64,000 nucleotides of DNA, taken from IMG/VR virus record IMGVR_UViG_3300021400_005610; one strand, written 5' to 3'. A program made the position numbers and the translations under genes. Shown here one piece after another: positions 6,641 through 57,477 of the stretch (positions are counted from its first letter, which is position 1; every line of letters begins with the position of its first letter). Under the pieces are notes generated by a model. It did not search any database, was not told the origin of the DNA, and saw only the letters and a program-made list of their open reading frames with translations. This stretch comes from a virus. Its lineage: Duplodnaviria > Heunggongvirae > Uroviricota > Caudoviricetes.

Positions 6641-6704
6641 GATAACAGCGCATATTTTGTGATTTATGTCGATTTGAAAGTGAATATTGAAAGGAGCTTT
6701 GGTT

Positions 6705-9513: not shown

Positions 9514-10392
9514 ATGGCTGTTAAACCGAGTTATAGAGTGCCGTATTCTCTGAACCAGTCTTATACTGACATGACTATTGCTTTGCAGTCGAAAGACGGC
9601 TCTGTTGGTCGTGTTATTCCGATGATGGCAATGTTGGCATATGTTGTTTCATTCGTTGCATGCTTGATGTTGGTTACGAAATCGTTCATTGGGACGATGG
9701 GTTCCACTGGGCAGATTATTATCTTCATCATCTTGTGGATTGCGATTACTGTCGTATTGTGTAAGTATGATGGTACTCGTCGAATGAATATGCAGCGGAT
9801 TACAACATTATTTAATTATCTTCCGAAATCAGCACGCTATGTGTATACTCGAAACACACGTTCAGCAGTACCGTTTTGGAAGATTGTCGGTATCGAATCT
9901 GTTGCACCCGATGGTCTTGTGACGTATGCTGATAAGACATATGGCTATTTCTATAGAGTTGTCGGTAGTGCTTCTATTCTGTTGTTTGAGTCAGACCAAG
10001 ATGCCATTATCACTCGTGTTGATAACTTCTTTAAGAAGTGGCAGACCGATTCAGAAGTAATATTCATTACCGCGAAGGAAGGTCAGAAGGTATATCGTCA
10101 GTTGGCTGCGTTGCAGAGACGATATGAAAACCTTCAGAACGATGATCAGGATCTTCGTGATTTAGCGGAAGAGCAGTTCCGTATTTTGAGAGATTATGTC
10201 GGTAAGGAATTCAAATCTATTCACCAGTATATGGTGATTAAGTCCGACAATAAAGAGGCCCTTCGTGTTGCGAATGGTATTCTGCAGAACGAAGTCGAGA
10301 ACTCTGCTTTGTTTATCAAGCAGTGTGTGCCTCTTGAGAAAGAAGATACTCTTGAGTTTCTTCGTTCTATTTATCAGAAAGGAGGGGCGTAA
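9514..10392 (+). CDS. conjugation-module membrane protein (two TM helices near N-terminus)
   Basis: The hydrophobic segments MMAMLAYVVSFVACLMLV and IIFIILWIAITVVLC sit upstream of the large protein occupying the VirB4 position. AAAGGAGG RBS. Confidence 0.5.
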   Translation: MAVKPSYRVPYSLNQSYTDMTIALQSKDGSVGRVIPMMAMLAYVVSFVACLMLVTKSFIGTMGSTGQIIIFIILWIAITVVLCKYDGTRRMNMQRITTLFNYLPKSARYVYTRNTRSAVPFWKIVGIESVAPDGLVTYADKTYGYFYRVVGSASILLFESDQDAIITRVDNFFKKWQTDSEVIFITAKEGQKVYRQLAALQRRYENLQNDDQDLRDLAEEQFRILRDYVGKEFKSIHQYMVIKSDNKEALRVANGILQNEVENSALFIKQCVPLEKEDTLEFLRSIYQKGGA

Positions 10393-10395
10393 GTT

Positions 10396-12441
10396 ATGGC
10401 ACTTAAGAGAAGGAATGCGAATGGCGAGACCGAGGAGGTCATCGTCGATAATACTGCGCAGCGCTCCTTGGGTGGAAAGTTTGGTAAATCCAAATCTCGT
10501 GATAAGGTAGATGAAGAAACGGAAAAGAAGGGTCTCTTTGGTCGTAAAAAGAACAAAGATGAAGCTGATTTGAGTGATGTTGATTTTGAGTCGTATCCTC
10601 ATTTGCTGTATTTAAAGCCGAAAGAGCGTTATATTTTCCACTCTGATTATTTTGATATTGATAATCAGGTGGCAACGATTGTTGCGTTCTTCCATACAGA
10701 TGGTGCTTCTGATAACTTTGGTCCGTTCTGGGGCATTAACCGTATTCCTGCAGGACTTGGTGATAATATCGTCACATTTTCGTTCGAGCAGATTAGCCGT
10801 ATGTCTGAGGCTTGGATTCAAGACCATCAGACGAAGGCTGAAGGTATTGCTGCTACAGATGAACAGGAAACGGCTCGTGCTGGTACGACTACATCCAAAC
10901 AGCAGGCAAGTAGAAAGAGTTATGATTTTGAAGTCATTGCTCGTGAGTTGCAGGAAGGTGCAGCCTATCTGCAAGTTCATTATCGTCTGTTGATTAAAGC
11001 ACCGACAATTGATGATTTGGATTATGCTTTGGATCAGCTGAAGCGTTTGTATATGGACCGTTTCGGTACGTTGAGTATCGCTGCGTATGCTGGTGATGAG
11101 CGTACTGAACTTTCCACATTGTTCTCGAAGAATGCGAGAAAGATTGGTCGTGGATTCAACTTTACATCCACTGAGTATGCGGGTTCTTATAGTTTGGTAA
11201 CGCATGGTCTGGAAGACCCTCGTGGTGAATATGTTGGATACATGGTCGGTGATGTTAATAACTCTGCTGTGTTGTTTGATACGGATGGGTATTCACATCA
11301 TGCGGTTATCGTTAACGAGAACTATTTCGAGAAATTGGGTCGTGCGCACGTATCTGACATGTGGTGTTCAAAAATTAGCCAATCGGCGTTATTGAACAAC
11401 CATCGTGTCGTTCATATTTTGATGAACGGTTGTGATATCAATAAGCTCGGTCCGAAGTTTGAATCTCTGACATCTATTATTGATATGCAGCATGGTGCTG
11501 TTAATATGTTTGAGATGTTTGGTGAAGATGGCGATGAAATGACTATCTTCCCAGCGCAGATGCAGAAATTGATTTTGATGGCTGAACAGGCTTATGCTGC
11601 TACAGACAGTGACCGTTCCATCATTCGTGGTTCTTTGGAGGAAATTGCTACACAGTTCTATATTGATAGACGTATGTGGCGTGCGAATGCTAAGGAACAT
11701 CGTGAAGACCTTCGTGTTGTAGGTATTCCGCACTCTGAGATTCCTCTTTTACAGGAATTTGTTTCATACCTGGAGACAGGTTATAAGAAACAGGCTATGT
11801 CTGCCGCACGAGATGATGAAAAGTTGCACGCTATGAGCGTTTTGCTTTTGACTTTCCGTAACATGCTTTCGAATAATGGTGACTTGTTTAACATGATTAC
11901 CAGCGATGAGATTGATAATGCGGTCAATGGTCAGCGTGTACTTTACGATTTCAATGGTTTGATGCGTCGTGGTAAAGGTGTTGCTATGGCTCAGCTTGTA
12001 AATATCATCGGTTTTGCCGTTGGTACGTTGGGCGAAGGTGATGTTGTTATTTTCCACGGAGCGGATTTGATTGATAACGGTGTCAAGGATTACATTAATC
12101 AACAGCTTGCACATTTACATTCTCGTGGCGGTCGTGTCTTGTATTCTTATGACAATACTGATATAATGTTGGCAGATAAGAGTTTCTGTCGTTTTGATAA
12201 GGCTGATTTTACGATTTTCGGAAATCTGACCGATACGGCGGTGGTTGCTTATCAAGAAGAATTGGGGCAGACCATTCCGCCTGATCTTTCCCGCTTGATT
12301 ACATCGAAATCTGAGAGCGTATGTTATATTCGCCGTGGATTTGATAATGTTGTATTCAAGCAAGATTTGGCACTTGGCATCAGCTCTCGTAAGAGTACGA
12401 CAAAGAAAGGAGGCATGAAACGAAATGGTTTGGTGTCGTAA
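10396..12441 (+). CDS. large cytoplasmic conjugation protein in VirB4 position (no canonical Walker A found)
   Basis: 681 aa with a GGAGGGG RBS. Its position after the membrane protein and before the VirB6-like gene suggests a VirB4/TraE-like role. I found no GxxxxGK[ST] motif, so the ATPase call is uncertain. Confidence 0.5.
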   Translation: MALKRRNANGETEEVIVDNTAQRSLGGKFGKSKSRDKVDEETEKKGLFGRKKNKDEADLSDVDFESYPHLLYLKPKERYIFHSDYFDIDNQVATIVAFFHTDGASDNFGPFWGINRIPAGLGDNIVTFSFEQISRMSEAWIQDHQTKAEGIAATDEQETARAGTTTSKQQASRKSYDFEVIARELQEGAAYLQVHYRLLIKAPTIDDLDYALDQLKRLYMDRFGTLSIAAYAGDERTELSTLFSKNARKIGRGFNFTSTEYAGSYSLVTHGLEDPRGEYVGYMVGDVNNSAVLFDTDGYSHHAVIVNENYFEKLGRAHVSDMWCSKISQSALLNNHRVVHILMNGCDINKLGPKFESLTSIIDMQHGAVNMFEMFGEDGDEMTIFPAQMQKLILMAEQAYAATDSDRSIIRGSLEEIATQFYIDRRMWRANAKEHREDLRVVGIPHSEIPLLQEFVSYLETGYKKQAMSAARDDEKLHAMSVLLLTFRNMLSNNGDLFNMITSDEIDNAVNGQRVLYDFNGLMRRGKGVAMAQLVNIIGFAVGTLGEGDVVIFHGADLIDNGVKDYINQQLAHLHSRGGRVLYSYDNTDIMLADKSFCRFDKADFTIFGNLTDTAVVAYQEELGQTIPPDLSRLITSKSESVCYIRRGFDNVVFKQDLALGISSRKSTTKKGGMKRNGLVS

Positions 12442-15064
12442 GAAATCTGTAGTTCGATTTCTAACGTTGATTCTTGTGTTTGTAATGAGTTTCAGCATGT
12501 TTGTCGTACCAACATATGCGTCTGGTTCTCAAGCGTCGACTGAAGACGGGGTTGGAACATCGCTTTACGATGTAACGACTGCATTGACTGCTTACGCAAG
12601 TAATGTCGTTGGTTCAAATACCAACGATAAGCAGGTTGATGAGTCTAACAGTCCTGTAAGTGCGCATCAAGTTTGGATTCTGAAAAATGCGGATGTCGGA
12701 GATGCTGGTGCTATTGTTGGTTATGGTGATAAGCAAAAAGGATTTATTGCTTTCGTTACAGCAAATGAAACTCGATCAGTTACGACCTCGAACTACGCAG
12801 CGTATAAGAACATTGGTGATAATAATAAAACCTATGCATATGTGCGCTATGGTCGTTTGCTGACTACATTGGGTTTGGATGAGACTGGTAACCCTGCGTC
12901 CGCGGATTATCTTCGCTTTGCGGGTTATTTGGTCGAAGGCGCTCACATGGTTTCGCGTGCTGTGCCTTGGTTGTTTAGTGTTTCAATTAATATTTTAAGG
13001 TTTTTGAATCCATTCAGATTTTTGGTGGATTCCAGAGCAGTTAATGGTGTTATTACTGATGTAAGCGCCAGTAATGCTTATAATGCTGTAGATCCGTTTA
13101 ATCAGAGTCAAGGTTTACAGGGTGCCAGTGGTTTGGTTACTGGTGCTGCGCATGCTGACCCGATGACAGGTGTCAATGAATATAATGGCGCTTCGTCAAC
13201 CATTCAGTATGGTGGTAGTAAGTCATTTAATGTTGCAACGAGTGGTTTACAAAAGGTTGCTCGTATTACAACCATGCTTTATGTGTGGTGTCGAAATATC
13301 GGTATGTTTATTATTGTACCGTTCCTTACTTTGTTGTTGATTGCCAGCTTATTGCTGACACGTAGCAATGATAAGTGGGGTAAAGTCGCAACATATGCAA
13401 AGCGTTTGTTCTTTATTTTCGTAGGTGTGCCTTTCTTGGGTATTATTTATACTTCAGTGCTGGACACTGTCGAAGAAAATATTGTTACAAATGCACCGTC
13501 GTCACGTATTGTTGCAGCGACATTTGTTGACTTTGAAAACTGGGCGAAAATTGCTCGTTTGGATCCACCTGCCAGCATGACATCTGAAGTAGCAGATGAT
13601 ACGCCAGGTGGTAAGCCGAGTGCGGACACAATTCGTACTGTTCGTGACTATGCTTACACAGTCAATCGGAAAACTAACTTGTATTATTTACCAGTAAGTT
13701 CTGGTTTGGGTATTGGTTCTTCTGGTAGAAGTTTTGGCTTGAATGCAGGTATGTGGGACGATAATGGTTGGAAGACCATGGGAAGTTCTGGTGGTACTAT
13801 TCAAGCACAGTTTGATCGTATGAATGCTTTGCTGAGTACGTATGCCGCTGGTCATTTTTATACGGCTTCTGCTTGGGAGTCTGCAATTAATACTACATTG
13901 AAGGCGCTGTATGCGTCTGATATGGGTAGTTCACCGACTACGAGTGGTGCATCACCGAATAAGAACACAGTTTATCAGATGTATTTTGATACAGATGAAG
14001 TTGAAGACTGGATGAACCGTGCGGCAGTAGAAAGCCAGCATATTTTTAAGGGTGATTCTGCACCTGAGGAAGCACAATGGGCACCATCTTCGTTTAATAT
14101 CTTTAAGAATGGTGGTTCGCTTGGTCTTGGTGATGCAAGTGGTGGTGGCGATTATGAATATAGTGGTAGCGGTTGGGGTGGCCGTGTAGGTCTTGCTACT
14201 ACGGGCGCACAATTTGGATTATCAACTGTATCGATGTATAATTATTTGGCATCTGCCTTTAATGCATCAAATATCGCTGTATATTCTGCCGCGAATACGA
14301 CATCTGAATATACGAGAGTTCAGCATTATTCTGTTAATGCAGTTGGCTCTGGTTTGTTAGGTGCTCTGTTCATTATCAATACGATTGTGGTTCTTGGTAT
14401 CTTCTCGTTGGTTGCTTTGTGTTATTGCTTGGGTATGATTGGTCATAACTTGAAGACTGGTTTCTCCATGATTATGGCAATTCCTGGCGCAATGTTCGGT
14501 ATTATGAAGTCCATCGTGCAAGTTGTCGTATATGTCATTAATATGATCATTACGATTATCGCAACTGCAATTTTGTATAGTTTTATTTGCGATTTGATTA
14601 TCATCTTCGCATCGTTAATTGAATCGCCTGTCCAGTCGATAGTAGAGAATGTTACTGAAACGTCTATAGCTGGTGGCTTGTTTGCTTCTCTGGGCAGTTC
14701 CAATTTTGTGATGTCATTTGCAGAAAATACGAACTTGTTCGTTCTTGGCATTGGTGTTGTTACACTTGCCACTTTGGTTCTTGGTGTTGGCATGTATGCT
14801 ACACGTAGATGTGTATTGGTGGCAGAGGCTTATGCCTTTGACTATGCACTTAGATGTCAGACAGCTCGTGAGTTCTTGCCTGTATTTGATGAAATCATGG
14901 CAAAGAGAAAGTCAATGTACTTCTGGGATGAGTTGGCTTATGACGTAGATGATGTTGCATCAGCAAGTAAAGAAATTTTGGACGGTTTGTTGCCTGATGC
15001 CTTGCCTGAAGTTCAGGTTGTTCCTCAGGTTGTTCCGTCAGGAAGGAGTGTGGCTGGATTATGA
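12425..15064 (+). CDS. VirB6/TrbL-like polytopic membrane protein with large N-terminal extracytoplasmic domain
   Basis: An N-terminal signal/anchor MVWCRKKSVVRFLTLILVFVMSF, then a Gly/Ser-rich soluble region, then at least 6 predicted TM helices in the C-terminal half. The start overlaps the upstream stop. Confidence 0.55.
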   Translation: MVWCRKKSVVRFLTLILVFVMSFSMFVVPTYASGSQASTEDGVGTSLYDVTTALTAYASNVVGSNTNDKQVDESNSPVSAHQVWILKNADVGDAGAIVGYGDKQKGFIAFVTANETRSVTTSNYAAYKNIGDNNKTYAYVRYGRLLTTLGLDETGNPASADYLRFAGYLVEGAHMVSRAVPWLFSVSINILRFLNPFRFLVDSRAVNGVITDVSASNAYNAVDPFNQSQGLQGASGLVTGAAHADPMTGVNEYNGASSTIQYGGSKSFNVATSGLQKVARITTMLYVWCRNIGMFIIVPFLTLLLIASLLLTRSNDKWGKVATYAKRLFFIFVGVPFLGIIYTSVLDTVEENIVTNAPSSRIVAATFVDFENWAKIARLDPPASMTSEVADDTPGGKPSADTIRTVRDYAYTVNRKTNLYYLPVSSGLGIGSSGRSFGLNAGMWDDNGWKTMGSSGGTIQAQFDRMNALLSTYAAGHFYTASAWESAINTTLKALYASDMGSSPTTSGASPNKNTVYQMYFDTDEVEDWMNRAAVESQHIFKGDSAPEEAQWAPSSFNIFKNGGSLGLGDASGGGDYEYSGSGWGGRVGLATTGAQFGLSTVSMYNYLASAFNASNIAVYSAANTTSEYTRVQHYSVNAVGSGLLGALFIINTIVVLGIFSLVALCYCLGMIGHNLKTGFSMIMAIPGAMFGIMKSIVQVVVYVINMIITIIATAILYSFICDLIIIFASLIESPVQSIVENVTETSIAGGLFASLGSSNFVMSFAENTNLFVLGIGVVTLATLVLGVGMYATRRCVLVAEAYAFDYALRCQTAREFLPVFDEIMAKRKSMYFWDELAYDVDDVASASKEILDGLLPDALPEVQVVPQVVPSGRSVAGL

Positions 15065-18000
15065 TAAACGGTAGTTTGGCATTAGCTTCATCCATTTTCA
15101 ATGGTGAAGTAATGATGATCCTTGTACTTCTGTTGACAAGCGTCCTTCTGGTGTTGTTTGGCATTATGGCTATCCGCTTGCGTAAAGGTCTGATTGGTGC
15201 CTTGGGCGAGATTACGGACAATGTTGTTTCGAAATTTGTCCAGGGTACTGGTTCAGGCGGAGCTTCAGCTACTGTAGCCGCTGCATCTGGTGGTGTTATT
15301 TCTGGCGCTGGCGGTTCTTCAGGAGGCGGTGGTGGCGGCGGTTCTCTTACAGGTAATGTAATGGGAGCTAACACCATGGTATCGGCAGCAACTGGTGGTA
15401 AATCCAGTTTGGGCAAGATTGCTCTTGCTGGTGTTGGCGCGGCTGCTGGTGGTACATTGCTTGGCGGTGCGTTCGGACAGCGTGGCGAAGGTACTTCAAA
15501 CGAAGGTGAACATGGTATGGTTGCCACAGGTGCACTTGAAAATGAAGAAACGACACAAAATGTCGGCGAAGGCGAAGGTGCATTCTTCGGACAGGCTGGT
15601 ACAGCAGGTCAGGGAGGCCAAGGTGGCGAAGCTGGTCAGGCTGGTGCAGCAGCTCAGGTTACAGGCGAAGCTGGTGTTGATGGTCAGGCTGGCGTGAATG
15701 GTCAGGCTGGTGCTGATGCGACAACAATGAATGCTGACGGAACAGTTAATGCTAGGAATAGCAGTGTTGCGAATGTGGATTCCGCCGCTGAGATGTCTGG
15801 TTCTCGTAATGCATATTACGGTCAGGCTGGTGGATCAGACCATATGGTCGCTACTGGTGCTATGACGATAAAGAGTATGGCATCCGAGTCCAGTATGGAA
15901 CGTATGGATCGTCAGAATCAGAATGTTTATGAACAGGCTGATTCGTTGGCTGCTTTGTCAAGTAAGAAAACTGTTGGTCAGGCTGCATCTGGTGTATCTG
16001 CAGGTGCGAATGGCTTAAGTGGTGTGAACGGTATTGCTGGCGAGAACGCTCAGATTGGTAGTGCTAATGTTGGCGGTACAGTTAATGCTCAGAATGCAAA
16101 TGCTGTTAAGGGCGTTGTCGCTCAAGCTGCTCCTGGCGTCGGTGGTTACGCAACTTCTGTTGGCGGACAGGGCGTTGGCAGTCGAGGTGCAGGTGCTACA
16201 GCTGTTGCCGCAGGTTCAGTACAGAATGCTTCTGCACAGAATGTATCTGCGGGTCAAGCAGGTATTCGTGGAGTCTCTGCTCAGCAGAGTAATAATAATA
16301 TGGCCGTTGGCTCTGTCAATGGAGTGGACGGTGTGAATGGTCAAGGCGCTTCTGTACAATCGCAGTCTAAGACGCTTTCTGGCGGTTCTGTACACGGTGG
16401 TGTCAATGTGGCTTCTGCCGATGTAAATGGCGGTTTGAAGACCGTTAGTCCACAGAATGGTGTGTATCGTCAGAATGGTGCCGCTCAAGCAGCCGCTATT
16501 GGTGGTGTTGCAGGTGGCATGGTCGCAGGTGCGAATGGACAGGGTAGTCAAGTTGGACAGTCTGGTATCCGTGGTGTTTCCGCACAGGTTGCCGCAAATG
16601 CTAATGGTGTCGGTGGTCAGTCAGGTTCTGCTTCTGCATATGGACAGCAGGGAGCGAATGGTTTGGCTGGATCCGCACAGGCTGTTGCAGATGGTGAATA
16701 TCGTCATAGTGTTAATTCTGGTATCCGTGGCGTTTCTGCCCAGAGTACTGGCAATAGAATGACAGTGATGGGCGGTACCGTAAATGCGCAGGGTATTGGT
16801 GGTCAAGTAGGTTCTGCTGCAGCTTATGGACAGAATGGAGCCAATGGTGTTGCTGGTTCAGCACAGGCTGTTGCTTCTGGCGTATATCGTCAGAATGATG
16901 CAGGACTCCGCGGTGTTGCTGTTGGTGGTAATGCAAATGCCGTTGGTGCAAGTGGTGCAAACGGTGGTGTAGGTGCCGATGGTGGTATCCGTGGTGTGAG
17001 TGCTCAGAGTTCTGGTAACAGGATGGTTGTTGGCGGCGTTGTCGCTGGTGGAGCAAACGCACAGGCTACAGGTGGTCAGTCTGGTTTTGCAGCTGCGTAT
17101 GGACAGAATGGCGCAAATGGTGCTGGCGGTCCTGCAGGTGCGAATGGTACTGGAGCATATTATCGTCAGGGTGCTGATTCTGGTATCCGTGGGGTTGGAG
17201 CGCAGGTTTCAGCTAACGGTGGATATGGTGTTGGTGGTAATGGTGCAGGTGCGAATGCAAATGCAACTGGATCTAATGCTCATAAATCTAGTTCTGAACA
17301 GCGTAATGTAATGGCTGCTGGTATGGTTGTGCCTGGTAGTCAAGGAGTTACTGGACCGAATGGTACCGCTGGTGTAAACGGTGGACAGGGCGCAGATGCG
17401 GGTATCCGTGGAGTTGGTGCTCAGTCGTCCAATAATCGTATGTATGGCGGTGGAATGGCTGCTGGTACTGTACAGGGTGCTTCTGCTGCGGCACATGGTA
17501 TGAGTGTTGCTAATGGTGCTACTGGTCAGTCTGTTGGGTCTGGTGCGTATAGGGCTAGTTCTGAACAGCGTAACGTCATGGCAGCAGGTATGGTAATGCC
17601 TGGTGGTCAGACTGGTGCAAACGGTCGTGATGGTGTCAATGGCGTTGGTACAGACAGTGGTGTACGTGGTGTCGGTGCTCAGACAAGTCGTGATGTTGCA
17701 TCCGTTGGTGCACAGGGTGGTAGCGTGATTGCTTCTGCTCGTGGCGTGAACGGTGGTGCAGGTGCTAATGGTTATGCCAGTGCAAATGCTAATGGCGTTG
17801 GTGGTCAAGGACAGGGCGGTGCTTATTATAGAGCAGGCGCTGATCAGAGATCTGCTATTGGTGCTGGTACTGTGGCTGGTGTGGCTGGTGGTGCTGTACA
17901 GGGCCGTGATGGCGCATCTGGACGTGGTGCAGATACAGTTCGTAATGTTAATGGTCAAGTTGGAGCAAGTCATGAATATGCAGTTCCTGGTTCCGTAGGC

Positions 18001-19608
18001 GCATCAGGTGCTGGTGCATCCGCTCGTAGTGTTAATGGACAGAACGGTAGTAATGGCGTTGGTGGAGCTGCATTTGTCGCTGGCGGTATGTATAGAGCAA
18101 GCTCTGATGGACGTGGTGGTGTTGGAGCCGATGGTCGTGGCGGCGTAGGTCGTGACGGTCAGGGTGGTACAACTTCCGAACGTGGCGGTTCCGTAGGTTC
18201 TGTGGATCACAGAAATATTGGCAGTGGACAGTCTGGACCTGTACATTCTGGTGTTCCTGGTGCAAATAGCTATGCTTATGCAGTAGGTGGTGTTGGCGGA
18301 GCAGCAGGCGGTATGAGTGGTTCAGGTTCTCTGAGCCGTTCTGGTTCCAGTGTTTCGGATCGTGAGAGAAGTAACGAACATGATGCAGAATCTGATTATC
18401 GTCAGGTTGGTGGCTCAGTTGGTGCTTCTTCTGGTAGAGTTCGTACTGCTTCTGCATCGGCAAATCGTACTCCAGGTGGTGTGGATCGTCTGAATACGTC
18501 GTCTGATACAGCAGGTCGTTATACGGCTCGTTCTGGTGGTGTTGGTAGTGAACATGATGGTTTCGCTTCTGCTATTGGTGAGAGTGGTCGTGCAGGTGCT
18601 GCAGGAGCCGATGGTACAGCAGGACGTGATGGATTTGCAGGTAATGCAGGACGTGATGGTATGGCTGGTTCCGCAGGTTCCGTTGGTTCAAATAGCATGA
18701 ATGGTGCTCATGTCGCATCTTATGTCAATAATGCATCTTCAGGTGGTTATAGACAGGATGGCGCTGGTAGTGCTCATGGCGGTGTTGGCGGCGTAGGTCG
18801 CGACGGTCGTGATGCGAATGCAACAGCTTCTGGTATTGCAGGAGGTATTGCAGGAACGTCTGGCGCAGTTGCTAGTGCATCAGGACGTAACGGATTTGCA
18901 GGTAATGCAAGACGTGATGGTGCTGCAGGATCCGTAGGTTCCGCTGGTGCAAATGGCATGAATGGTGTTCATGTCGCATCTTATGTCAATAATGCACCTG
19001 TAGGTGGTCATAGAGAGGTTGGCGCTGGTAGTGCTAATGGCGGTGTTGGTGGCGTAGGCCGTGATGGTCGTGATGCGAATGCAACAGCTTCTGGTATTGC
19101 AGGAGCAGCTGGAGCAGCCGCTAATGCACGTGGCGGTCGTTCTGGTGCATCCAGTAGGGATACCGTTGGTGGATCGAGTCGTCAGGTTGGTTCTTACGCA
19201 TCTCGCGAAGGCGGTATGTTGCGTGGAGAATCTGAACGTAGTTTCGAACGTGCCTTTGGCAGTGATGGTGGACAGATGGGTGCTACTGGAGCCGCAGGTT
19301 CGACGGTTGTTAATAACACTAATACCACAGCTCGTTATGAGAGTGGTTCTGGCACTGGTACTGTTGTTCAGGGTCAGAGTAGACCGATGTCTGACCGTCC
19401 TATTGATAGAGAGAAAGAGAAAGAGAAGAAACCTGAGGTGCGTCGTCGTTCCTCGAATACAGGTGATAATGCCGACTTAGGTCATCTGAAAGGTATTGAC
19501 TTAGGCGAGAATGCATATGGACCTGGTAGTGAACAGGGTAACATGGAAATGAACCGTTCATTACATCGTGATGGTAGTAGTGATGCTGATGATGATGGAT
19601 TCATTTAA
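15061..19608 (+). CDS. giant Gly/Ala/Ser-rich repetitive membrane-anchored protein
   Basis: 1515 aa with an N-terminal TM MMILVLLLTSVLLVLFGIMAI. About 8 degenerate repeats are seeded by SGIRGVSAQ, and a collagen-like G-R-D-G region with a near-identical ~86 aa duplication lies near the C-terminus. The start overlaps the VirB6-like stop. Confidence 0.7.
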   Translation: MINGSLALASSIFNGEVMMILVLLLTSVLLVLFGIMAIRLRKGLIGALGEITDNVVSKFVQGTGSGGASATVAAASGGVISGAGGSSGGGGGGGSLTGNVMGANTMVSAATGGKSSLGKIALAGVGAAAGGTLLGGAFGQRGEGTSNEGEHGMVATGALENEETTQNVGEGEGAFFGQAGTAGQGGQGGEAGQAGAAAQVTGEAGVDGQAGVNGQAGADATTMNADGTVNARNSSVANVDSAAEMSGSRNAYYGQAGGSDHMVATGAMTIKSMASESSMERMDRQNQNVYEQADSLAALSSKKTVGQAASGVSAGANGLSGVNGIAGENAQIGSANVGGTVNAQNANAVKGVVAQAAPGVGGYATSVGGQGVGSRGAGATAVAAGSVQNASAQNVSAGQAGIRGVSAQQSNNNMAVGSVNGVDGVNGQGASVQSQSKTLSGGSVHGGVNVASADVNGGLKTVSPQNGVYRQNGAAQAAAIGGVAGGMVAGANGQGSQVGQSGIRGVSAQVAANANGVGGQSGSASAYGQQGANGLAGSAQAVADGEYRHSVNSGIRGVSAQSTGNRMTVMGGTVNAQGIGGQVGSAAAYGQNGANGVAGSAQAVASGVYRQNDAGLRGVAVGGNANAVGASGANGGVGADGGIRGVSAQSSGNRMVVGGVVAGGANAQATGGQSGFAAAYGQNGANGAGGPAGANGTGAYYRQGADSGIRGVGAQVSANGGYGVGGNGAGANANATGSNAHKSSSEQRNVMAAGMVVPGSQGVTGPNGTAGVNGGQGADAGIRGVGAQSSNNRMYGGGMAAGTVQGASAAAHGMSVANGATGQSVGSGAYRASSEQRNVMAAGMVMPGGQTGANGRDGVNGVGTDSGVRGVGAQTSRDVASVGAQGGSVIASARGVNGGAGANGYASANANGVGGQGQGGAYYRAGADQRSAIGAGTVAGVAGGAVQGRDGASGRGADTVRNVNGQVGASHEYAVPGSVGASGAGASARSVNGQNGSNGVGGAAFVAGGMYRASSDGRGGVGADGRGGVGRDGQGGTTSERGGSVGSVDHRNIGSGQSGPVHSGVPGANSYAYAVGGVGGAAGGMSGSGSLSRSGSSVSDRERSNEHDAESDYRQVGGSVGASSGRVRTASASANRTPGGVDRLNTSSDTAGRYTARSGGVGSEHDGFASAIGESGRAGAAGADGTAGRDGFAGNAGRDGMAGSAGSVGSNSMNGAHVASYVNNASSGGYRQDGAGSAHGGVGGVGRDGRDANATASGIAGGIAGTSGAVASASGRNGFAGNARRDGAAGSVGSAGANGMNGVHVASYVNNAPVGGHREVGAGSANGGVGGVGRDGRDANATASGIAGAAGAAANARGGRSGASSRDTVGGSSRQVGSYASREGGMLRGESERSFERAFGSDGGQMGATGAAGSTVVNNTNTTARYESGSGTGTVVQGQSRPMSDRPIDREKEKEKKPEVRRRSSNTGDNADLGHLKGIDLGENAYGPGSEQGNMEMNRSLHRDGSSDADDDGFI
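16250..17700 (+). repeat. tandem degenerate coding repeats (GIRGVSAQ-seeded, ~60-70 aa period)
   Basis: The DNA motif ggtatccgtggtgt(t/g)tc(c/t)gc(a/t)cag recurs at about 16561, 16723, 16981, 17173, 17401 and 17641. Confidence 0.6.
18625..19108 (+). repeat. ~258 bp near-identical internal duplication in the Gly-rich gene
   Basis: Copy 18625-18850 and copy 18883-19108 share long identical runs, e.g. catgtcgcatcttatgtcaataatgca and gatgcgaatgcaacagcttctggtattgcagga. Confidence 0.7.
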
Positions 19609-19696: not shown

Positions 19697-19780
19697 TATA
19701 GTGATCAGAGGGGGAGTGGGGTTTTCTTCCCGTACTGATTGACGTCAATCGTAAAATTTCGAAGAAAGGAGGAAGACGCC

Positions 19781-20122
19781 ATGTATAATGTTATCTTAAG
19801 TGCAACGATTGGTAAGTTTATCGGTGCTCTGCAGGGTTCCCTTGCTAACTATGCACTGATGATTGCTTCTCTGATTGGTATCGCGATGGTTGTCGTAGGT
19901 ATCTTCCAGCTTGCAAAGAACCTTATCTCCCATGGTAAGGGTCAGGCGAACTGGGCTGTTACATTTGGACTGATTATCGTTGGTTCCATGGTTGCCATGG
20001 GAACTGGTTGGAAGTTCGTTGGTGACATGGGTAAGACTGGTGGTAAAACTCTTGATGACGCAGCTATTAGTGGTCAGGCTGATGATTCCACTGGTGACTT
20101 CACAAGCGACCCGTTCAATTAA
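19781..20122 (+). CDS. small two-TM membrane protein, VirB2/TrbC- or TcpE-like (copy 1)
   Basis: 113 aa with two hydrophobic helices separated by HGKGQ and a Gly-rich acidic tail. AAAGGAGG RBS. About 90% identical to the downstream paralog. Confidence 0.6.
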   Translation: MYNVILSATIGKFIGALQGSLANYALMIASLIGIAMVVVGIFQLAKNLISHGKGQANWAVTFGLIIVGSMVAMGTGWKFVGDMGKTGGKTLDDAAISGQADDSTGDFTSDPFN

Positions 20123-20143
20123 TTTGATTTGATTTGATTGGAC

Positions 20144-20178
20144 AGACCCTTAATGTTCATCATTAAGGGTCTTTTTTC
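20144..20178 (+). terminator. rho-independent terminator
   Basis: gacccttaatg...cattaagggtc hairpin plus TTTTTT. Confidence 0.7.
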
Positions 20179-20227
20179 CAGTAAGGAATTATGTTGATTG
20201 TTGCAAAATAAAGTTTTATTTTGTGAC

Positions 20228-20255
20228 TTGCGAATTTAAAAACATGTGATATAAT
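20228..20255 (+). promoter_or_regulatory. promoter (TTGCGA-16-TATAAT) for paralog 2
   Basis: -10 TATAAT at 20250-20255 with a TG extension, and -35 TTGCGA. Confidence 0.45.
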
Positions 20256-20336
20256 GTAGTAGAAGCAGTTGATAAGATTGCTTTTGTTTATATTATTGAA
20301 ATCACATGGAATGCGTGTAGAAAGGAGAAAGACGCC

Positions 20337-20678
20337 ATGTACAATGTTATCTTAAGTGCAACGATTGGTAAGTTTATCGGTGCTTTGCAGGGTTCTCTTG
20401 CTAACTATGCACTGATGATTGCTTCGTTGATTGGTATCGCGATGGTTGTCGTTGGTATCTTCCAGCTTGCTAAGAACCTTATCTCTCATGGTAAGGGTCA
20501 GACTAACTGGGCTGTTACCTTTGGATTGATTATCGTTGGTTCCATGGTTGCCATGGGTACTGGTTGGAAGTTCGTCGGTGATATGGGTAAGACTGGTGGT
20601 AAGACACTTAGTAGTGCAGCAATCACTGGTAAGGCCGATGATCAGAAGGGCGACTTTACGAGCGATCCATTTAACTAA
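20337..20678 (+). CDS. small two-TM membrane protein, VirB2/TcpE-like (copy 2, tandem paralog)
   Basis: Near-identical to 19781-20122 including the RBS region. It has its own terminator at 20701-20740. Confidence 0.6.
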   Translation: MYNVILSATIGKFIGALQGSLANYALMIASLIGIAMVVVGIFQLAKNLISHGKGQTNWAVTFGLIIVGSMVAMGTGWKFVGDMGKTGGKTLSSAAITGKADDQKGDFTSDPFN

Positions 20679-22211: not shown

Positions 22212-24059
22212 ATGGCTGAGACAGATAATAATCTCAAGAAGGCACAACCTGTATCTGCAGATCCTGTATCAGATGGTTCAGGTAGTGATTCTGGTGCAGA
22301 AAAGCCTGTTGCTCATACCAATGCTGGTAATTTTGTTGCACAGGCTAAAGATTTTGCAGGTTCAGCTGCCAACACGGCTGGTGGTGCTATGAAAAATGCT
22401 TTTTATAGCGCAAAGAACAGTTGGTTTGGTATTAGACCTGTGACTGTAGCCATTTCTAACGGTGTTGGAAAGGCTGCATCATTCATGAATATTTCAAAGA
22501 AATCAATGGGCATCGCATTGGCAGTGATCCTCTTGGGCGGTGGTTCAGCAGGTGTAATTGGTCTTGTTAATTATCAGCATCAACAGTTGATTTTTAAGCA
22601 GGAGGATTATTATGATCCTTGTGCAGACGAGTTAGCTGATGCTGAGAAAGGTAAAAAGGTTACTACAGCACCTGGTGATGTAAATGCTCAGGTTATGGAA
22701 AATGCAAAGATTGCGTGGGCTCTTGGTAAAGCATATGGTATGACGGACGAACAGTGTGCTGGTATGCTTGGTAATATGCAGCAGGAGTCTGGTTTTGATC
22801 CATATTCAGTTGAAGCTATTTTTGATGAACCGTTCCAGATTGGACCGAGGAAAGCGGCTTTGTTTACGAGTGATTTTAATAATATCACGCCAGCTATGGA
22901 AGAATGGACAAAGGCTTTGCCTGGAAAGTATTCGGTGTCGATTAACTTAGAGGCGTATCGTTTTAGTGATGGCCGTTATTGTGCAGGTCTTGGTCTGATT
23001 GGTTTTACAGGCCCATATGCCGAGGATTTGATGGCAACGGCAGCATCTGAAGGCAAGGAATGGTTCGATTATAATATTCAGTTAGCTGAAATGATTAGTG
23101 GTGGTGAGCATAATTCTTGGCGTTTTAATAAGTTTTTGCAGGATGATGCTCATGCAAATTCGGTTGATGATGCGACCGCCGCTTGGTATGGTTATATGGA
23201 ACGTGGTATGGACCATCCTGTTTACGATACTATGACTGGTGGTTTTACTCAGCGTGCTCGTTATGCACACGACTGGTATGAGAGATTGTCACCAATGTCG
23301 AATCAGATTGCTCGTGAGTATGGTGATGTAGCTGATGATGTTATGGCATTGGTTGAAAAGTTGAATGCTGCTCATGGCGCTGGTGTTTTGACACGTAAGG
23401 CTGCTGGTAAGCATGCTGATATGCTGTCCGAAGAGTGTGGTCTTGAAGAAGAAAAGTATGATAATTCTTCATTGGCTGCCGCAGCGGTTGCGTATGCATG
23501 GCCAACGAGAGAAGCTGGTCGTTGTAATGATGGTACTCAGTTATATCAAGAGGTTCATGATGCTGTAGCGCCTGGTGATCCTTGGTATCAGTCTTGTGAC
23601 CGTGGTGTCACAACGGCGGTTCGTTGGTCTGGTGCTGACGATAATATGGACATGGGTGCTTGTACGAATATTATGGCTCATTGTGTTGCAAATCCAGATT
23701 TGTGGGACGATCTTGGTGTATATGGTTCTTCTATCACATATGACCAGTTGGAGCCTGGTGATATTCTTTGTGGTCCTCACCATGTTCATATGTATACAGG
23801 CTATGAAGAAATTGCTAAGAAGTATCCTGATGCACCGAGTGATTACAATACGGTATCTGCTTCTATTGGTGATCAGCAGCGGAATGGTGGTCCTGGCACA
23901 GGTACAACGAGTAGATCGCCTGGTTGTTGTAATGGTATTGGCCCGTCCAATATTGAAAATATGAGTGACTGGGGTGTTGCGCATATCTATCGTTATAAAG
24001 GCGATTATAGTGGTGCATTGAAAAATGCTTATACAGGTAATGCCAGTGGTACTTCTTAA
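22212..24059 (+). CDS. bifunctional peptidoglycan hydrolase (lysozyme-like domain + C-terminal NlpC/P60-CHAP-like domain), VirB1/CwlT analogue
   Basis: TM anchor MGIALAVILLGGGSAGVIGLV, then the AWALGKAYGMTDEQCAGMLGNMQQESGFDPY phage-tail-lysozyme-like motif. The C-terminal Cys/His papain-like segment is ...QSCDRGV...HHVHMYTG. Confidence 0.7.
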   Translation: MAETDNNLKKAQPVSADPVSDGSGSDSGAEKPVAHTNAGNFVAQAKDFAGSAANTAGGAMKNAFYSAKNSWFGIRPVTVAISNGVGKAASFMNISKKSMGIALAVILLGGGSAGVIGLVNYQHQQLIFKQEDYYDPCADELADAEKGKKVTTAPGDVNAQVMENAKIAWALGKAYGMTDEQCAGMLGNMQQESGFDPYSVEAIFDEPFQIGPRKAALFTSDFNNITPAMEEWTKALPGKYSVSINLEAYRFSDGRYCAGLGLIGFTGPYAEDLMATAASEGKEWFDYNIQLAEMISGGEHNSWRFNKFLQDDAHANSVDDATAAWYGYMERGMDHPVYDTMTGGFTQRARYAHDWYERLSPMSNQIAREYGDVADDVMALVEKLNAAHGAGVLTRKAAGKHADMLSEECGLEEEKYDNSSLAAAAVAYAWPTREAGRCNDGTQLYQEVHDAVAPGDPWYQSCDRGVTTAVRWSGADDNMDMGACTNIMAHCVANPDLWDDLGVYGSSITYDQLEPGDILCGPHHVHMYTGYEEIAKKYPDAPSDYNTVSASIGDQQRNGGPGTGTTSRSPGCCNGIGPSNIENMSDWGVAHIYRYKGDYSGALKNAYTGNASGTS

Positions 24060-37442: not shown

Positions 37443-37581
37443 TCTAAGTTGAATAGTTTGACACAATTGTTGAAAGTACGGAATTGTTGAGAGTACGGCG
37501 ACGGTGATCATAAATTGATGGTTGCCGCCGCCGTTTCTAATATGCTTTGTATTATTTTATGGGAAGGAGGCGCTGACAAAT

Positions 37582-57367: not shown

Positions 57368-57477
57368 ACGCTCCGTGTCTGGTTGGCGAATGTCAGAGGG
57401 GGCAGCGGGTTACGTATCACTGCCCCTCTCTTTATCGCAAAAAAAAAAATACGCAGTAGTTGGAAAGGATGTTAGAC

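What the first reader, a model, noticed from the sequence alone, without database searches (positions are those of the whole stretch)
15061..19608. 1515-aa Gly/Ala/Ser-rich protein with GIRGVSAQ-seeded repeats and a collagen-like G-R-D-G tail
It sits directly after the VirB6-like gene with overlapping stop/start. It has an N-terminal TM anchor, about 8 degenerate ~60-70 aa repeats each beginning SGIRGV(S/G)AQ, then a region of GRDG/GxxG triplets. Near the C-terminus is a nearly exact ~86-aa (258-bp) tandem duplication (18625-18850 and 18883-19108). Such low-complexity surface proteins in T4SS operons could be adhesins or channel-lining proteins. The repeat DNA is also a hotspot for slippage and size variation.
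Basis: seen in the sequence. Interest (0 to 1): 0.6.

Follow-up and report, generated by a model that had tools for sequence, protein, structure and literature searches.

The report
Detached disordered tail of VirB6-like protein
This 1515-residue gene encodes a membrane-anchored, almost entirely unstructured glycine/alanine-rich chain that in related plasmids is the C-terminal tail of the conjugation-channel membrane protein encoded just upstream; here it is a separate gene, greatly lengthened and fast-changing, and its role is unknown.

Summary
The ORF is real and mostly as described: 1515 aa, 24% Gly, one N-terminal TM helix, eight G[ILV]RGV-seeded units, a short G-X-Y/GRDG stretch and a tandem duplication. 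The duplication has a 261-nt period and is 87-89% identical in DNA, so it is not nearly exact.

New result: the N-terminal helix plus the 'AIRLRK...DKF' segment is homologous to the last hydrophobic helix of the upstream polytopic membrane protein family. In more distant relatives, including Gordonia plasmid pGKT2, membrane protein and low-complexity tail are one ORF. The gene is therefore a split-off, expanded tail of an 'extended VirB6'-type subunit in a barely annotated Gram-positive-type conjugation module.

In 9 syntenic metagenomic lineages the tail protein is 625-1700 aa, while neighbouring genes keep their size. Two near-identical elements differ by in-frame gain or loss of whole repeat units. 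AlphaFold gives no structure (pLDDT 27).

The ends are conserved: the anchor, a C-terminal 'GDNADxGxφRGVQLGE' motif and often an acidic-hydrophobic tip. Flanking charges predict that the bulk lies in the cytoplasm, which argues against a surface adhesin, but this is prediction only.

Best reading: a channel-anchored, multivalent flexible tether. It is a new variant of a known kind, of moderate interest.

The parts
12425..15064 (+). 879-aa polytopic membrane protein in the VirB6 position ('B6-like'). It has a signal/anchor helix, a helical hairpin at aa ~273-355, a ~300-aa loop, a second long hairpin at aa ~644-733, a further TM at 771-789, and a ~90-aa C-terminal helical segment found only in the split-type loci.
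15061..19608 (+). The finding: 1515-aa tail protein (stop codon included). Its start overlaps the stop of the B6-like gene (ATGA), and a GGAAGGAG sequence lies 12 nt upstream.
   Evidence: The exact protein is found on ENA scaffold ERZ28612966 scaffold_28, 284 kb.
15112..15177 (+). The only confident transmembrane helix (aa 18-39, MMILVLLLTSVLLVLFGIMAI). It is homologous to the last hydrophobic helix of the fused B6-like proteins.
   Evidence: KD peak 3.02. Approximate Hessa ΔG -4.8. Alignment with L011, L012, L013 and Gordonia pGKT2.
15178..15240 (+). Conserved juxtamembrane segment RLRKGLIGALGEITDNVVSKF (family consensus A[IL]RLR..I.T..E....[VI]DKF). The basic cluster sets the predicted N-out/C-in orientation.
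   Evidence: Alignments A3 and A4. Charges.
15394..15474 (+). Second conserved element, 'GGKSSLGKIALAGVGAAAGGTLLGGAF': Gly/Ala-rich and mildly hydrophobic. It is not predicted to span the membrane on its own.
   Evidence: Alignment. ΔG +2.4 to +8 across homologues.
16255..17928 (+). Array of eight degenerate units (27-101 aa). Each starts with (D/N/Q)xG[ILV]RGV(S/G)AQ, and most end in AYGQNGANG...Y(Y)R(Q/A).
   Evidence: DNA repeat families D5, D7 and D12 are 62-82% identical.
18577..18693 (+). Longest G-X-Y run (13 triplets, with GRDG motifs). This is the site of the sub-threshold Pfam Collagen hit.
18599..19105 (+). Tandem duplication of an 87-aa (261-nt) unit, 87-89% identical in DNA and 72% in protein. 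A Logan assembly of the same element breaks here.
   Evidence: L003 contig end.
19393..19509 (+). Conserved C-terminal module: a mixed-charge patch (DRPIDREKEKEKKPEVRRR) followed by GDNADLGHLKGIDLGE (family consensus GDN[AS]DxGx[IL][RK]G[VI]QLG[DE]).
   Evidence: BLASTP against P0001. C-termini of 9 lineages.
19570..19605 (+). Acidic C-terminal tip ending in a hydrophobic residue (RDGSSDADDDGFI). Similar tips (DDFI, NDFV, DDDII, DDGEFL, SEDV) occur in most full-length relatives.
9514..12441 (+). Context: two ORFs (292 aa with two TM helices, plus 681 aa) that together stand in the VirB3/VirB4 position. They form a single 835-aa ORF in Gordonia pGKT2.
   Evidence: Weak, collinear NCBIfam VirB4_plasma hits. 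No Walker A motif. Homologues in 268 plasmids.
19739..20678 (+). Context: two near-identical small proteins (113 aa) with two hydrophobic helices, directly downstream. They are candidate VirB2-like pilins.
   Evidence: Sequences. Criteria taken from bioRxiv 10.64898/2025.12.18.695078.

Best explanation
The ORF encodes the detached, greatly expanded C-terminal tail of an 'extended-VirB6'-type channel subunit. It belongs to an uncharacterised Gram-positive-type conjugation module.

Proposed anatomy:
- The N-terminal helix is homologous to the last hydrophobic helix of the one-piece proteins. It anchors the chain in the membrane beside, or within, the oligomer of the upstream 879-aa protein. The two are made in step through the overlapping ATGA stop/start.
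- Everything after the 'RLRK' cluster (about 1470 residues) is an intrinsically disordered chain rich in Gly, Ala, Ser, Asn and Gln. It carries short Arg/Tyr-containing motifs (φRGVφ, Y-R, GRDG), and the motif copy number changes quickly by unequal recombination.
- The distal end carries a conserved mixed-charge patch, a GDNADxGxφRGVQLGE motif and an acidic-hydrophobic tip.

Inferred mechanism: the chain is a flexible, multivalent tether at the channel. It most probably hangs into the donor cytoplasm, given the N-out/C-in orientation predicted from flanking charges. Its conserved tip and repeated motifs would capture or concentrate partners at the channel entrance. Candidate partners are the coupling protein, the VirB4-like protein, the relaxase-DNA complex or ssDNA.

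Shown: homology to the fused tails, synteny, length variation, purifying selection, and the lack of any predicted fold.
Inferred: topology, partners and function.

The confidence of 0.5 is for the whole statement. The identity part (detached tail of the upstream membrane protein, disordered, length-variable) I hold at about 0.85. The cytoplasmic-tether mechanism I hold at about 0.5.
For: 1. Split/fused homology. The target's TM helix plus 'AIRLRK..DKF' aligns with the last helix and following segment of one-ORF proteins. These are in L011 (>=1341 aa), L012 (1187 aa), L013 (>=1087 aa), Gordonia pGKT2 WP_148281114.1 (1272 aa), P0109 and P0112. Each continues into a low-complexity tail.
2. Conserved position. 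The gene lies directly after the B6-like gene, with overlapping stop/start, in every syntenic locus examined: L004, L006/10, L007, L014, L015/17, L019, L020, L024-26.
3. Module context. Pfam finds a T4SS coupling protein, a MobL relaxase, topoisomerase III and a PF18013 lysozyme. There are weak collinear VirB4_plasma hits and two-helix pilin-like genes.
5. Disorder. AF2 gives pLDDT 27.4 with no secondary structure over aa 316-1515.
6. It is a real, selected protein. Between L015 and L019 the tail has dN/dS 0.17, and all indels are in frame.
7. Conserved ends, variable middle. Lengths are 625-1700 aa. It is the fastest-evolving gene of the module, at 14-30% identity against 67-82% for the B4-like protein.
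8. Motif enrichment. G[ILV]RGV occurs 8 times against 0.06 expected. φ[RK]G[IV] recurs 2-17 times in relatives. The Arg:Lys ratio is 5:1, against about 1:1 in neighbouring proteins.
9. Topology. There are 0-1 basic residues before the TM helix and RLRK/RLRHH after it in all homologues. In the fused proteins the same helix is the fifth, running out-to-in. The second G/A-rich segment is not TM-competent.
10. Literature. The A. tumefaciens VirB6 C-terminus is cytoplasmic (quoted in PMC7648143).
Against: - Topology is only predicted, using simple hydropathy and charge rules.
- In the R388 structure most VirB6 helices lie outside the membrane in a periplasmic stalk (PMC12857230).
- Anaplasma VirB6-3/4 repeat tails were trypsin-accessible on intact cells (PMC7648143). 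A tail on the outside therefore cannot be excluded.
- No binding partner has been identified.
- AF2 was run on a single sequence, which tends to give low confidence in any case.
- All loci except the actinobacterial plasmids are short-read metagenome assemblies, so exact repeat numbers may be mis-assembled.
Confidence: 0.5

Rival explanations
1. Extracytoplasmic fibre. The chain is exported and threads through or over the thick Gram-positive wall. It would act as a wall-spanning spacer, surface adhesin or mating-pair stabiliser. This is the first reader's idea, and it resembles the surface-exposed repeat tails of Anaplasma VirB6-3/4.
For: Extended-VirB6 repeat tails in Anaplasma were trypsin-accessible, and their genes vary in length through 3' tandem repeats (PMC7648143). 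The F TraG C-terminal domain acts in mating-pair stabilisation (PMC4027160). The R388 structure places most VirB6 helices outside the membrane. A random coil of 600-1700 residues has dimensions of the order of a Gram-positive wall (own estimate). The conserved G/A-rich segment at aa 112-138 has K residues before it and acidic residues after it, as a second in-to-out helix would.
Against: There is no signal peptide, LPXTG motif or wall-binding domain. The basic cluster lies on the C-side of the only strong TM helix in all homologues. The second segment has ΔG +2.4 to +8 and is not hydrophobic at all in L006. Pro is 1%, unlike typical wall-spanning regions.
Confidence: 0.25
2. Delivered or exclusion determinant. 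The unfolded tail, or a cleaved piece of it, is passed through the channel into the recipient. Alternatively it is the variable specificity determinant of an entry-exclusion system, as with F/SXT TraG and, from my own knowledge, ICEBs1 ConG-YddJ.
For: VirB6-type proteins are the usual targets of exclusion proteins (PMC4027160; PMC7648143). The tail is the most variable gene of the module. A ~3.8-kb tract covering it has been exchanged or diversified between otherwise identical elements. A disordered chain would need no unfolding. The C-terminal charged patch and acidic tip resemble secretion or docking signals in kind.
Against: The chain is membrane-anchored by its N-terminus, and no cleavage site is evident. 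Low-complexity repeats are poor specificity determinants, and it is the ends rather than the middle that are conserved. No exclusion gene has been identified nearby. dN/dS of 0.17 gives no sign of diversifying selection.
Confidence: 0.1
3. Largely passive filler. Only the N-terminal anchor, and perhaps the C-terminal motif, matter. The middle is an expansion-prone, selectively near-neutral low-complexity spacer that has ballooned by replication slippage or unequal crossing-over.
For: There is a 2.7-fold length range with no change in neighbouring genes. Repeat unit types are lineage-specific: about 37 aa in L015 against 52-101 aa in the window. Fused actinobacterial tails are only about 350 aa and have a different composition.
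Against: dN/dS of 0.17 across the tail, with all indels in frame. φRGV motifs are retained across lineages that share little else. The Arg-over-Lys bias is strong. No lineage has lost the tail.
Confidence: 0.12
4. Artefact: a chance ORF or an assembly chimera in a GC-rich repetitive stretch.
For: The region is repetitive, and one short-read assembly breaks inside it.
Against: A 4.5-kb open frame in 40% GC DNA is unlikely by chance. The identical protein is recovered on an independent record. Homologues with conserved ends lie at the same position in at least 9 lineages. Purifying selection is evident.
Confidence: 0.02

Closest known systems
Extended-VirB6 proteins of Rickettsiales (Anaplasma phagocytophilum VirB6-3/VirB6-4)
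   Same: Both have a polytopic VirB6-type membrane part followed by a very long hydrophilic, repeat-containing C-terminal extension. [quoted passage not shown]
   Different: There the tail is part of the same polypeptide, in a Gram-negative obligate intracellular pathogen with an effector-secreting T4SS. Those tails were reported as surface-exposed, and those proteins carry a recognisable TrbL/VirB6 domain. Here the tail is a separate gene with its own anchor helix, in a Gram-positive-type conjugation module. It has a G/A-rich composition, a predicted cytoplasmic location and no sequence-detectable VirB6 domain.
MPF_FA-type VirB6 homologues of Gram-positive conjugative elements (Tn916 Orf15, pCW3 TcpH, ICEBs1 ConG)
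   Same: These are 700-900-residue polytopic proteins with 'additional unstructured domains', sitting next to VirB4, a wall hydrolase and a VirB8-like gene (PMC12857230). From my own knowledge, TcpH has a C-terminal cytoplasmic domain (Teng et al. 2008, not readable here).
   Different: hhalign between the B6-like family and TcpH finds nothing (probability 0.4%). None of those systems is described with a separate 600-1700-aa disordered tail gene.
One-ORF relatives of this same family (Gordonia sp. KTR9 pGKT2 WP_148281114.1; metagenomic L011-L013, P0109, P0112)
   Same: These are true homologues. They share the membrane part, the last helix plus 'RLRK..(V/I)(D/N)KF', the G/A-rich segment and then a low-complexity tail, in the same gene neighbourhood.
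   Different: Their tails are about 350-500 aa, rich in Pro, Ala and Lys or in acidic residues, and lack φRGV repeats. The split-type loci have an extra TM helix, a ~90-aa segment, and then a stop/start before the tail.
F-plasmid TraG (VirB6-like N-terminal part plus C-terminal domain)
   Same: A VirB6-type membrane part extended by a large C-terminal region with a separate role, namely mating-pair stabilisation and entry exclusion (PMC4027160 and PMC7648143).
   Different: From my own knowledge, the TraG C-terminal region is a folded periplasmic domain. It is neither a disordered repeat array nor a separate gene.
Tether-plus-tip designs: SSB C-terminal tail and FtsZ C-terminal linker/peptide (analogy only, own knowledge)
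   Same: A disordered linker of variable length and low complexity that ends in a short conserved acidic-hydrophobic peptide which docks partner proteins.
   Different: There is no homology. Those linkers are 50-300 residues on soluble proteins, whereas this chain is 5-30 times longer and membrane-anchored. Docking by the tip has not been tested here.

Membership tests
VirB6 / extended-VirB6 (for the 879-aa protein plus the tail taken together) | Polytopic membrane protein with about 5 or more hydrophobic helices and a large central extracytoplasmic loop | tested here: met
   A signal/anchor helix plus 5 hydrophobic helices, with a ~300-aa loop between the 2nd and 3rd. Flanking charges are self-consistent. 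AF2 shows long helical hairpins.
VirB6 / extended-VirB6 | Sequence membership in TrbL/VirB6 (Pfam PF04610) or similarity to a known Gram-positive VirB6 homologue | tested here: not met
   No Pfam, NCBIfam or PHROG hit. No PDB sequence hit. hhalign against pCW3 TcpH gives probability 0.4%.
VirB6 / extended-VirB6 | Fold similarity to a solved VirB6 (R388 TrwI) | tested here: inconclusive
VirB6 / extended-VirB6 | Encoded next to VirB4 within a T4SS gene set (coupling protein, relaxase, wall hydrolase, VirB8-like) | tested here: met
   Pfam-level coupling protein, MobL relaxase and PF18013 lysozyme lie on the same strand. The VirB4 assignment itself is weak: collinear sub-threshold VirB4_plasma hits and no Walker A motif.
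VirB6 / extended-VirB6 | Hydrophilic extension is part of the same polypeptide as the membrane domain | tested here: not met
   In the window and in 8 related lineages the tail is a separate ORF with an overlapping stop/start. It is one ORF only in the more distant relatives.
VirB6 / extended-VirB6 | Pentameric assembly that serves as a platform for VirB2-like pilins | not testable with these tools
   Needs multimer modelling (AF3) or experiment. Candidate pilin genes are present at 19739-20678.
Bacterial collagen-like proteins (Pfam PF01391) | Long uninterrupted G-X-Y array scoring above the Pfam gathering threshold | tested here: not met
   21.6 bits against a cut-off of 27.2. The longest run is 13 triplets and Pro is 1%.
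Gram-positive surface adhesins of T4SS operons (PrgB/PrgC/TraO type) | N-terminal signal peptide and C-terminal LPXTG sorting signal | tested here: not met
   There is no LPXTG motif in the window protein. The N-terminus has no basic n-region, and the basic cluster follows the helix.
VirB10/TrbI | C-terminal TrbI beta-barrel domain (PF03743) after a TM helix and a Pro-rich region | tested here: not met
   No Pfam hit. AF2 finds no folded domain in aa 316-1515.

The most novel reading that the evidence does not exclude
The tails of the channel oligomer would form a nucleoporin-like disordered 'selective phase' at the cytoplasmic mouth of a conjugation channel. If the oligomer is a pentamer, that is five chains of about 1470 residues each. 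Each chain carries Arg/Tyr 'stickers' (φRGV, YR, GRDG) in Gly/Ala/Ser/Asn/Gln 'spacers' and ends in a docking peptide. The phase would concentrate the relaxase-ssDNA complex and the ATPases, or would gate access. Repeat number would tune its size or valency.
Probability: 0.1. Interest if true: 0.85.

Novelty: new variant of a known kind. Interest (0 to 1): 0.5.

Why it matters
What the hydrophilic or unstructured extensions of 'extended VirB6' subunits do is an openly acknowledged gap in T4SS biology (PMC12857230).

This family offers a natural experiment. The extension is a separate gene, so it can be deleted, truncated or swapped without touching the membrane core. It contains no Cys, which makes it well suited to single-site topology labelling. 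Nature also supplies an allelic series from about 350 to 1700 residues.

The surrounding conjugation module is barely annotated. The VirB4-position, VirB6-position and VirB8-position proteins match no family at threshold in Pfam, NCBIfam or PHROGs. Yet relatives of the VirB4-position protein occur in 268 sequenced plasmids, including ones from Staphylococcus, Enterococcus, Listeria, Bacillus and actinobacteria. The biology may therefore bear on gene spread in Gram-positive bacteria.

Tried and rejected
- Family libraries. Pfam, NCBIfam and PHROGs gave nothing for the tail except a sub-threshold Collagen hit.
- Whole-protein search. The search for homologous proteins was swamped by low-complexity candidates and gave one true homologue, P0001.
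- N-terminal profile search. It found only short fragments.
- Exhaustive profile search of 1.84 billion representatives. It found 28 proteins, so the family is rare. The profile unintentionally covered all of P0001 (881 positions).
- Locus searches. The genome-contig scan with the VirB4-like alignment found nothing in 185,579 species representatives. Megablast of the locus against plasmids found nothing.
- Structure and remote homology.
  - PDB sequence searches for the 292-, 681- and 879-aa proteins were negative.
  - Foldseek of the B6-like model against the PDB was negative.
  - afdb50 was unavailable.
  - hhalign of the B6-like and B4-like families against pCW3 TcpH and TcpF was negative.
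- pELF linear-plasmid paper. It was checked because an E. faecium linear plasmid carries a homologue of the 681-aa protein. Its TraC/TraD/TraG are different proteins, so it does not bear on this locus.
- S. aureus plasmid ORF. The 1787-aa ORF after the VirB4-like homologue is not a B6-like protein or a tail. It has no TM helix and carries an RNAP β'-like DFDGD motif.
- Ideas rejected:
  - Collagen triple helix: too short, Pro-poor and below threshold.
  - VirB10-like: no domain found.
  - Serine-rich accessory-Sec substrate: Ser is 11% and there is no LPXTG, although a SecA paralogue lies 41 kb away.
  - A second TM helix at aa 120-138: ΔG is positive in all homologues.
- Not obtainable. The Teng et al. 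2008 paper on TcpH topology could not be read.
Full report
OBSERVATION

ORF 15061..19608 (+) is real: 1515 codons with an ATG start that overlaps the stop of ORF 12425..15064 in the sequence ATGA. The protein is 23.8% Gly, 16.4% Ala and 10.8% Ser, with no Trp or Cys. The local G+C content rises to 0.49-0.53, against about 0.40 in the flanks.

One segment, aa 18-39, is strongly hydrophobic. The motif G[ILV]RGV occurs eight times between aa 401 and 867. Shuffles that keep the composition give 0.06 on average and never more than 2 in 5000. The units between motifs are 27-101 aa long and share a second signature...AYGQNGANG...Y(Y)R(Q/A).

There are seven GRDG motifs. The longest in-phase G-X-Y run is 13 triplets at aa 1173-1211, against a shuffle maximum of 9. 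The Pfam Collagen hit is below threshold (21.6 vs 27.2 bits).

The C-terminal tandem duplication exists, but its period is 261 nt. The copies are 18599-18844 and 18860-19105. They are 87-89% identical in DNA and 72% in protein, so 'nearly exact' and '258 bp' are wrong.

SURROUNDINGS

All large ORFs of the window lie on the + strand. Pfam identifies:
- a ParA-like ATPase, a D5-type primase-helicase, a NikA-like protein and topoisomerase III (6687-8960);
- a PF18013 lysozyme (22212-24059), a MobL relaxase (29311-31410) and a large T4SS coupling protein (37522-41313);
- further out, ClpB-like and other AAA+ proteins, a RecD-like helicase and a SecA paralogue.

The genes immediately around the target (292, 681, 879, 113x2 and 444 aa) match no family at threshold. 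The 292-aa protein, which has two TM helices, gives a weak hit to the N-terminal part of the mycoplasma-ICE VirB4 model (E 1.7e-9). In Gordonia pGKT2 the 292- and 681-aa parts are one 835-aa ORF, and a second weak hit falls collinearly further along that model. Neither part has a Walker A motif.

The window comes from a 284-kb metagenomic scaffold.

WHAT THE GENE IS

A whole-protein search gave one true homologue, P0001 (881 aa). It has a conserved N-terminus and C-terminus and an unrelated middle. P0001 sits in a fully syntenic locus.

Nine more loci were collected using the conserved 681-aa protein, and further loci came from 84 homologues of the 879-aa protein. In every case a low-complexity ORF directly follows the 879-aa-type gene. 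Its lengths are 625/626 aa (L010/L006), 881 (L004), 1008 (L014), 1361 (L020), 1370 (L015 = L017), 1493 (L019), 1515 (window) and 1700 (L024-26). Over the same loci the neighbours stay at 645-690, 789-918 and about 435-451 aa.

The decisive observation concerns three more distant metagenomic loci (L011, L012, L013), Gordonia sp. KTR9 plasmid pGKT2 (WP_148281114.1, 1272 aa), and P0109 and P0112. In these the membrane protein and the low-complexity tail are a single ORF. Their last hydrophobic helix and the segment after it align with the target's N-terminus. For example, Gordonia ...LIMFTMMALKIRRSLLDGVDQAVTRLVNKFMD aligns with target ...LVLFGIMAIRLRKGLIGALGEITDNVVSKFVQ.

The split-type proteins carry an extra hydrophobic helix and about 90 residues before their stop codon. 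The target is therefore the detached C-terminal tail module of the upstream membrane protein. In this lineage it has expanded three- to five-fold.

IS THE UPSTREAM PROTEIN A VirB6?

By architecture, yes:
- a signal/anchor helix;
- a helix pair joined by a basic loop;
- a ~300-aa loop;
- three more helices, with charge distribution consistent throughout.

This is the classical VirB6 layout quoted in PMC7648143.

By sequence, no. Pfam, NCBIfam, PHROGs, PDB sequences, Foldseek and hhalign against TcpH are all negative.

I therefore call it 'B6-like by position and architecture', not a demonstrated member.

PROPERTIES OF THE TAIL FAMILY

Conserved elements:
- the TM helix;
- A[IL]RLR...[VI]xKF;
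- a Gly/Ala-rich, mildly hydrophobic segment (GGK..LGK[VI]ALAG...);
- a mixed-charge patch;
- the motif GDN[AS]DxGx[IL][RK]G[VI]QLG[DE];
- in most members, an acidic tip ending in a hydrophobic residue (DDDGFI, SSDDFI, TNDFV, DDDII, DDGEFL, SEDV).

The middle differs in sequence and in unit length between lineages: about 37 aa in L015 against 52-101 aa here. It nevertheless keeps φ[RK]G[IV] motifs, with 2-17 copies. Arg outnumbers Lys 5:1, whereas neighbouring proteins have roughly equal amounts.

AF2 on aa 316-1515 gives pLDDT 27.4 and essentially no secondary structure. This is consistent with intrinsic disorder, with the caveat that it was a single-sequence run.

The family is rare. Only 28 proteins reach E <= 1e-3 among 1.84 billion representatives, and nothing was found in 185,579 species genomes using the VirB4-like probe.

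EVOLUTIONARY DYNAMICS

The tail is the fastest-evolving gene of the module. It is 14-30% identical to the window protein, where the 681-aa protein is 67-82% identical.

L015 and L019 have DNA-identical flanking genes. They differ across a contiguous ~3.8-kb tract that runs from the 3' end of the B6-like gene through most of the tail. The tail gene carries 137 substitutions and the B6-like gene another 14; within the tail, dS is 0.087 and dN/dS is 0.17. There are also in-frame indels totalling 123 residues, the two large ones (35 and 85 aa) adding whole RGV-containing units.

This shows three things. The protein is under purifying selection. Repeat number changes on short time scales. The tail region is exchanged or converted as a block. 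Three samples share the same 1700-aa allele length, so the length is not chaotic. One caveat is that these are short-read assemblies, and one Logan contig breaks inside the 261-nt duplication.

TOPOLOGY AND MECHANISM (INFERENCE)

In all homologues the stretch before the helix has 0-1 basic residues, and the helix is followed at once by RLRK, RLRS or RLRHH. In the fused proteins the same helix is the fifth, predicted to run out-to-in. The conserved G/A-rich segment has an unfavourable insertion energy everywhere: +2.4 to +8 kcal/mol on an approximate Hessa scale recalled from memory.

The simplest reading is N-out/C-in, with about 1470 disordered residues per chain in the donor cytoplasm at the base of the channel. 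There is no signal peptide or LPXTG motif.

I therefore favour a channel-anchored, flexible, multivalent tether. Its conserved distal module and repeated Arg/Tyr motifs would recruit or concentrate cytoplasmic partners: the coupling protein, the VirB4-like protein, the relaxase-DNA complex or ssDNA. This resembles in kind the tether-plus-tip designs of SSB and FtsZ, which is an analogy from my own knowledge.

Against this reading, the R388 structure shows that most VirB6 helices are not in the membrane (PMC12857230). Anaplasma extended-VirB6 repeat tails were protease-accessible on intact cells (PMC7648143). I give an external fibre about one chance in four. Delivery or exclusion roles and a near-neutral spacer are lesser rivals.

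COMPARISON WITH KNOWN SYSTEMS

The closest described kind is the 'extended VirB6' subfamily. The Rickettsiales paralogues have huge, length-variable C-terminal repeat tails. The MPF_FA proteins are 700-900 aa with unstructured domains. The contribution of these extensions is stated to be unknown.

This case differs in five ways:
- the tail is a separate, translationally coupled gene with its own anchor helix;
- its G/A-rich, Arg/Tyr-punctuated composition;
- its conserved C-terminal module;
- its predicted cytoplasmic location;
- the lack of sequence-detectable VirB6 or VirB4 domains in the whole module.

It is not a collagen-like protein, an LPXTG adhesin or a VirB10.

VERDICT

I rate it a new variant of a known kind, with interest about 0.5.

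The most novel reading not excluded is a nucleoporin-like disordered phase at the mouth of a conjugation channel. I give it a probability of about 0.1.

Noticed in passing
window 19739-20122 and 20337-20678: Two near-identical tandem copies of a ~113-aa protein with two hydrophobic helices joined by a short basic loop, directly after the tail gene. Related loci have one copy (113-131 aa). This fits the published description of VirB2-like pilin candidates encoded next to virB6 in Gram-positive T4SSs (bioRxiv 10.64898/2025.12.18.695078).
   Followed up: partly
window 9514-10392 and 10396-12441; L027 5939-8446: The VirB3/VirB4-position function is split into 292-aa and 681-aa ORFs, which are fused as a single 835-aa ORF in Gordonia pGKT2. 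It shows only weak, collinear similarity to the mycoplasma-ICE VirB4 model and has no Walker A motif. tblastn finds homologues of the 681-aa protein, all annotated 'hypothetical', in 268 PLSDB plasmids. These include Streptomyces, Rhodococcus and Gordonia (47-55% identity), Staphylococcus, Enterococcus (including a linear plasmid), Listeria, Bacillus and lactobacilli.
   Followed up: partly
L015 12250-16000 versus L019: Two metagenomic elements have DNA-identical flanking genes but differ by about 150 substitutions and two in-frame indels. The differences are confined to one ~3.8-kb tract covering the 3' end of the B6-like gene and most of the tail gene. This suggests block exchange or conversion of this region.
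   Followed up: yes
window 1-64000 (e.g. 8-1033, 1136-1909, 33342-35144, 57460-60051, 60635-63064): The conjugation module lies on a 284-kb scaffold with every large ORF on one strand and strong positive GC skew. The scaffold also carries an actin-like segregation protein, an MscS channel, a ClpB-like double-AAA+ protein, another double-AAA+ protein and a full SecA paralogue. Sister elements lie on contigs of about 220-290 kb. This may be a very large plasmid-like element of an uncultivated gut Firmicute.
   Followed up: no
L028 10966-16329 (S. aureus plasmid NZ_CP150776.1): Directly after the homologue of the 681-aa protein, this staphylococcal plasmid encodes a 1787-aa soluble protein. It carries a 'GMDFDGD' motif like the catalytic loop of the multisubunit RNA polymerase β' subunit, and is annotated as hypothetical.
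   Followed up: no
L011 6289-10311: In this one-ORF relative the tail ends in perfect tandem 'APQQMPQQNPRQ'-type repeats and runs off the contig end. This is a different repeat chemistry (Pro/Gln-rich) on the same anchor.
   Followed up: no
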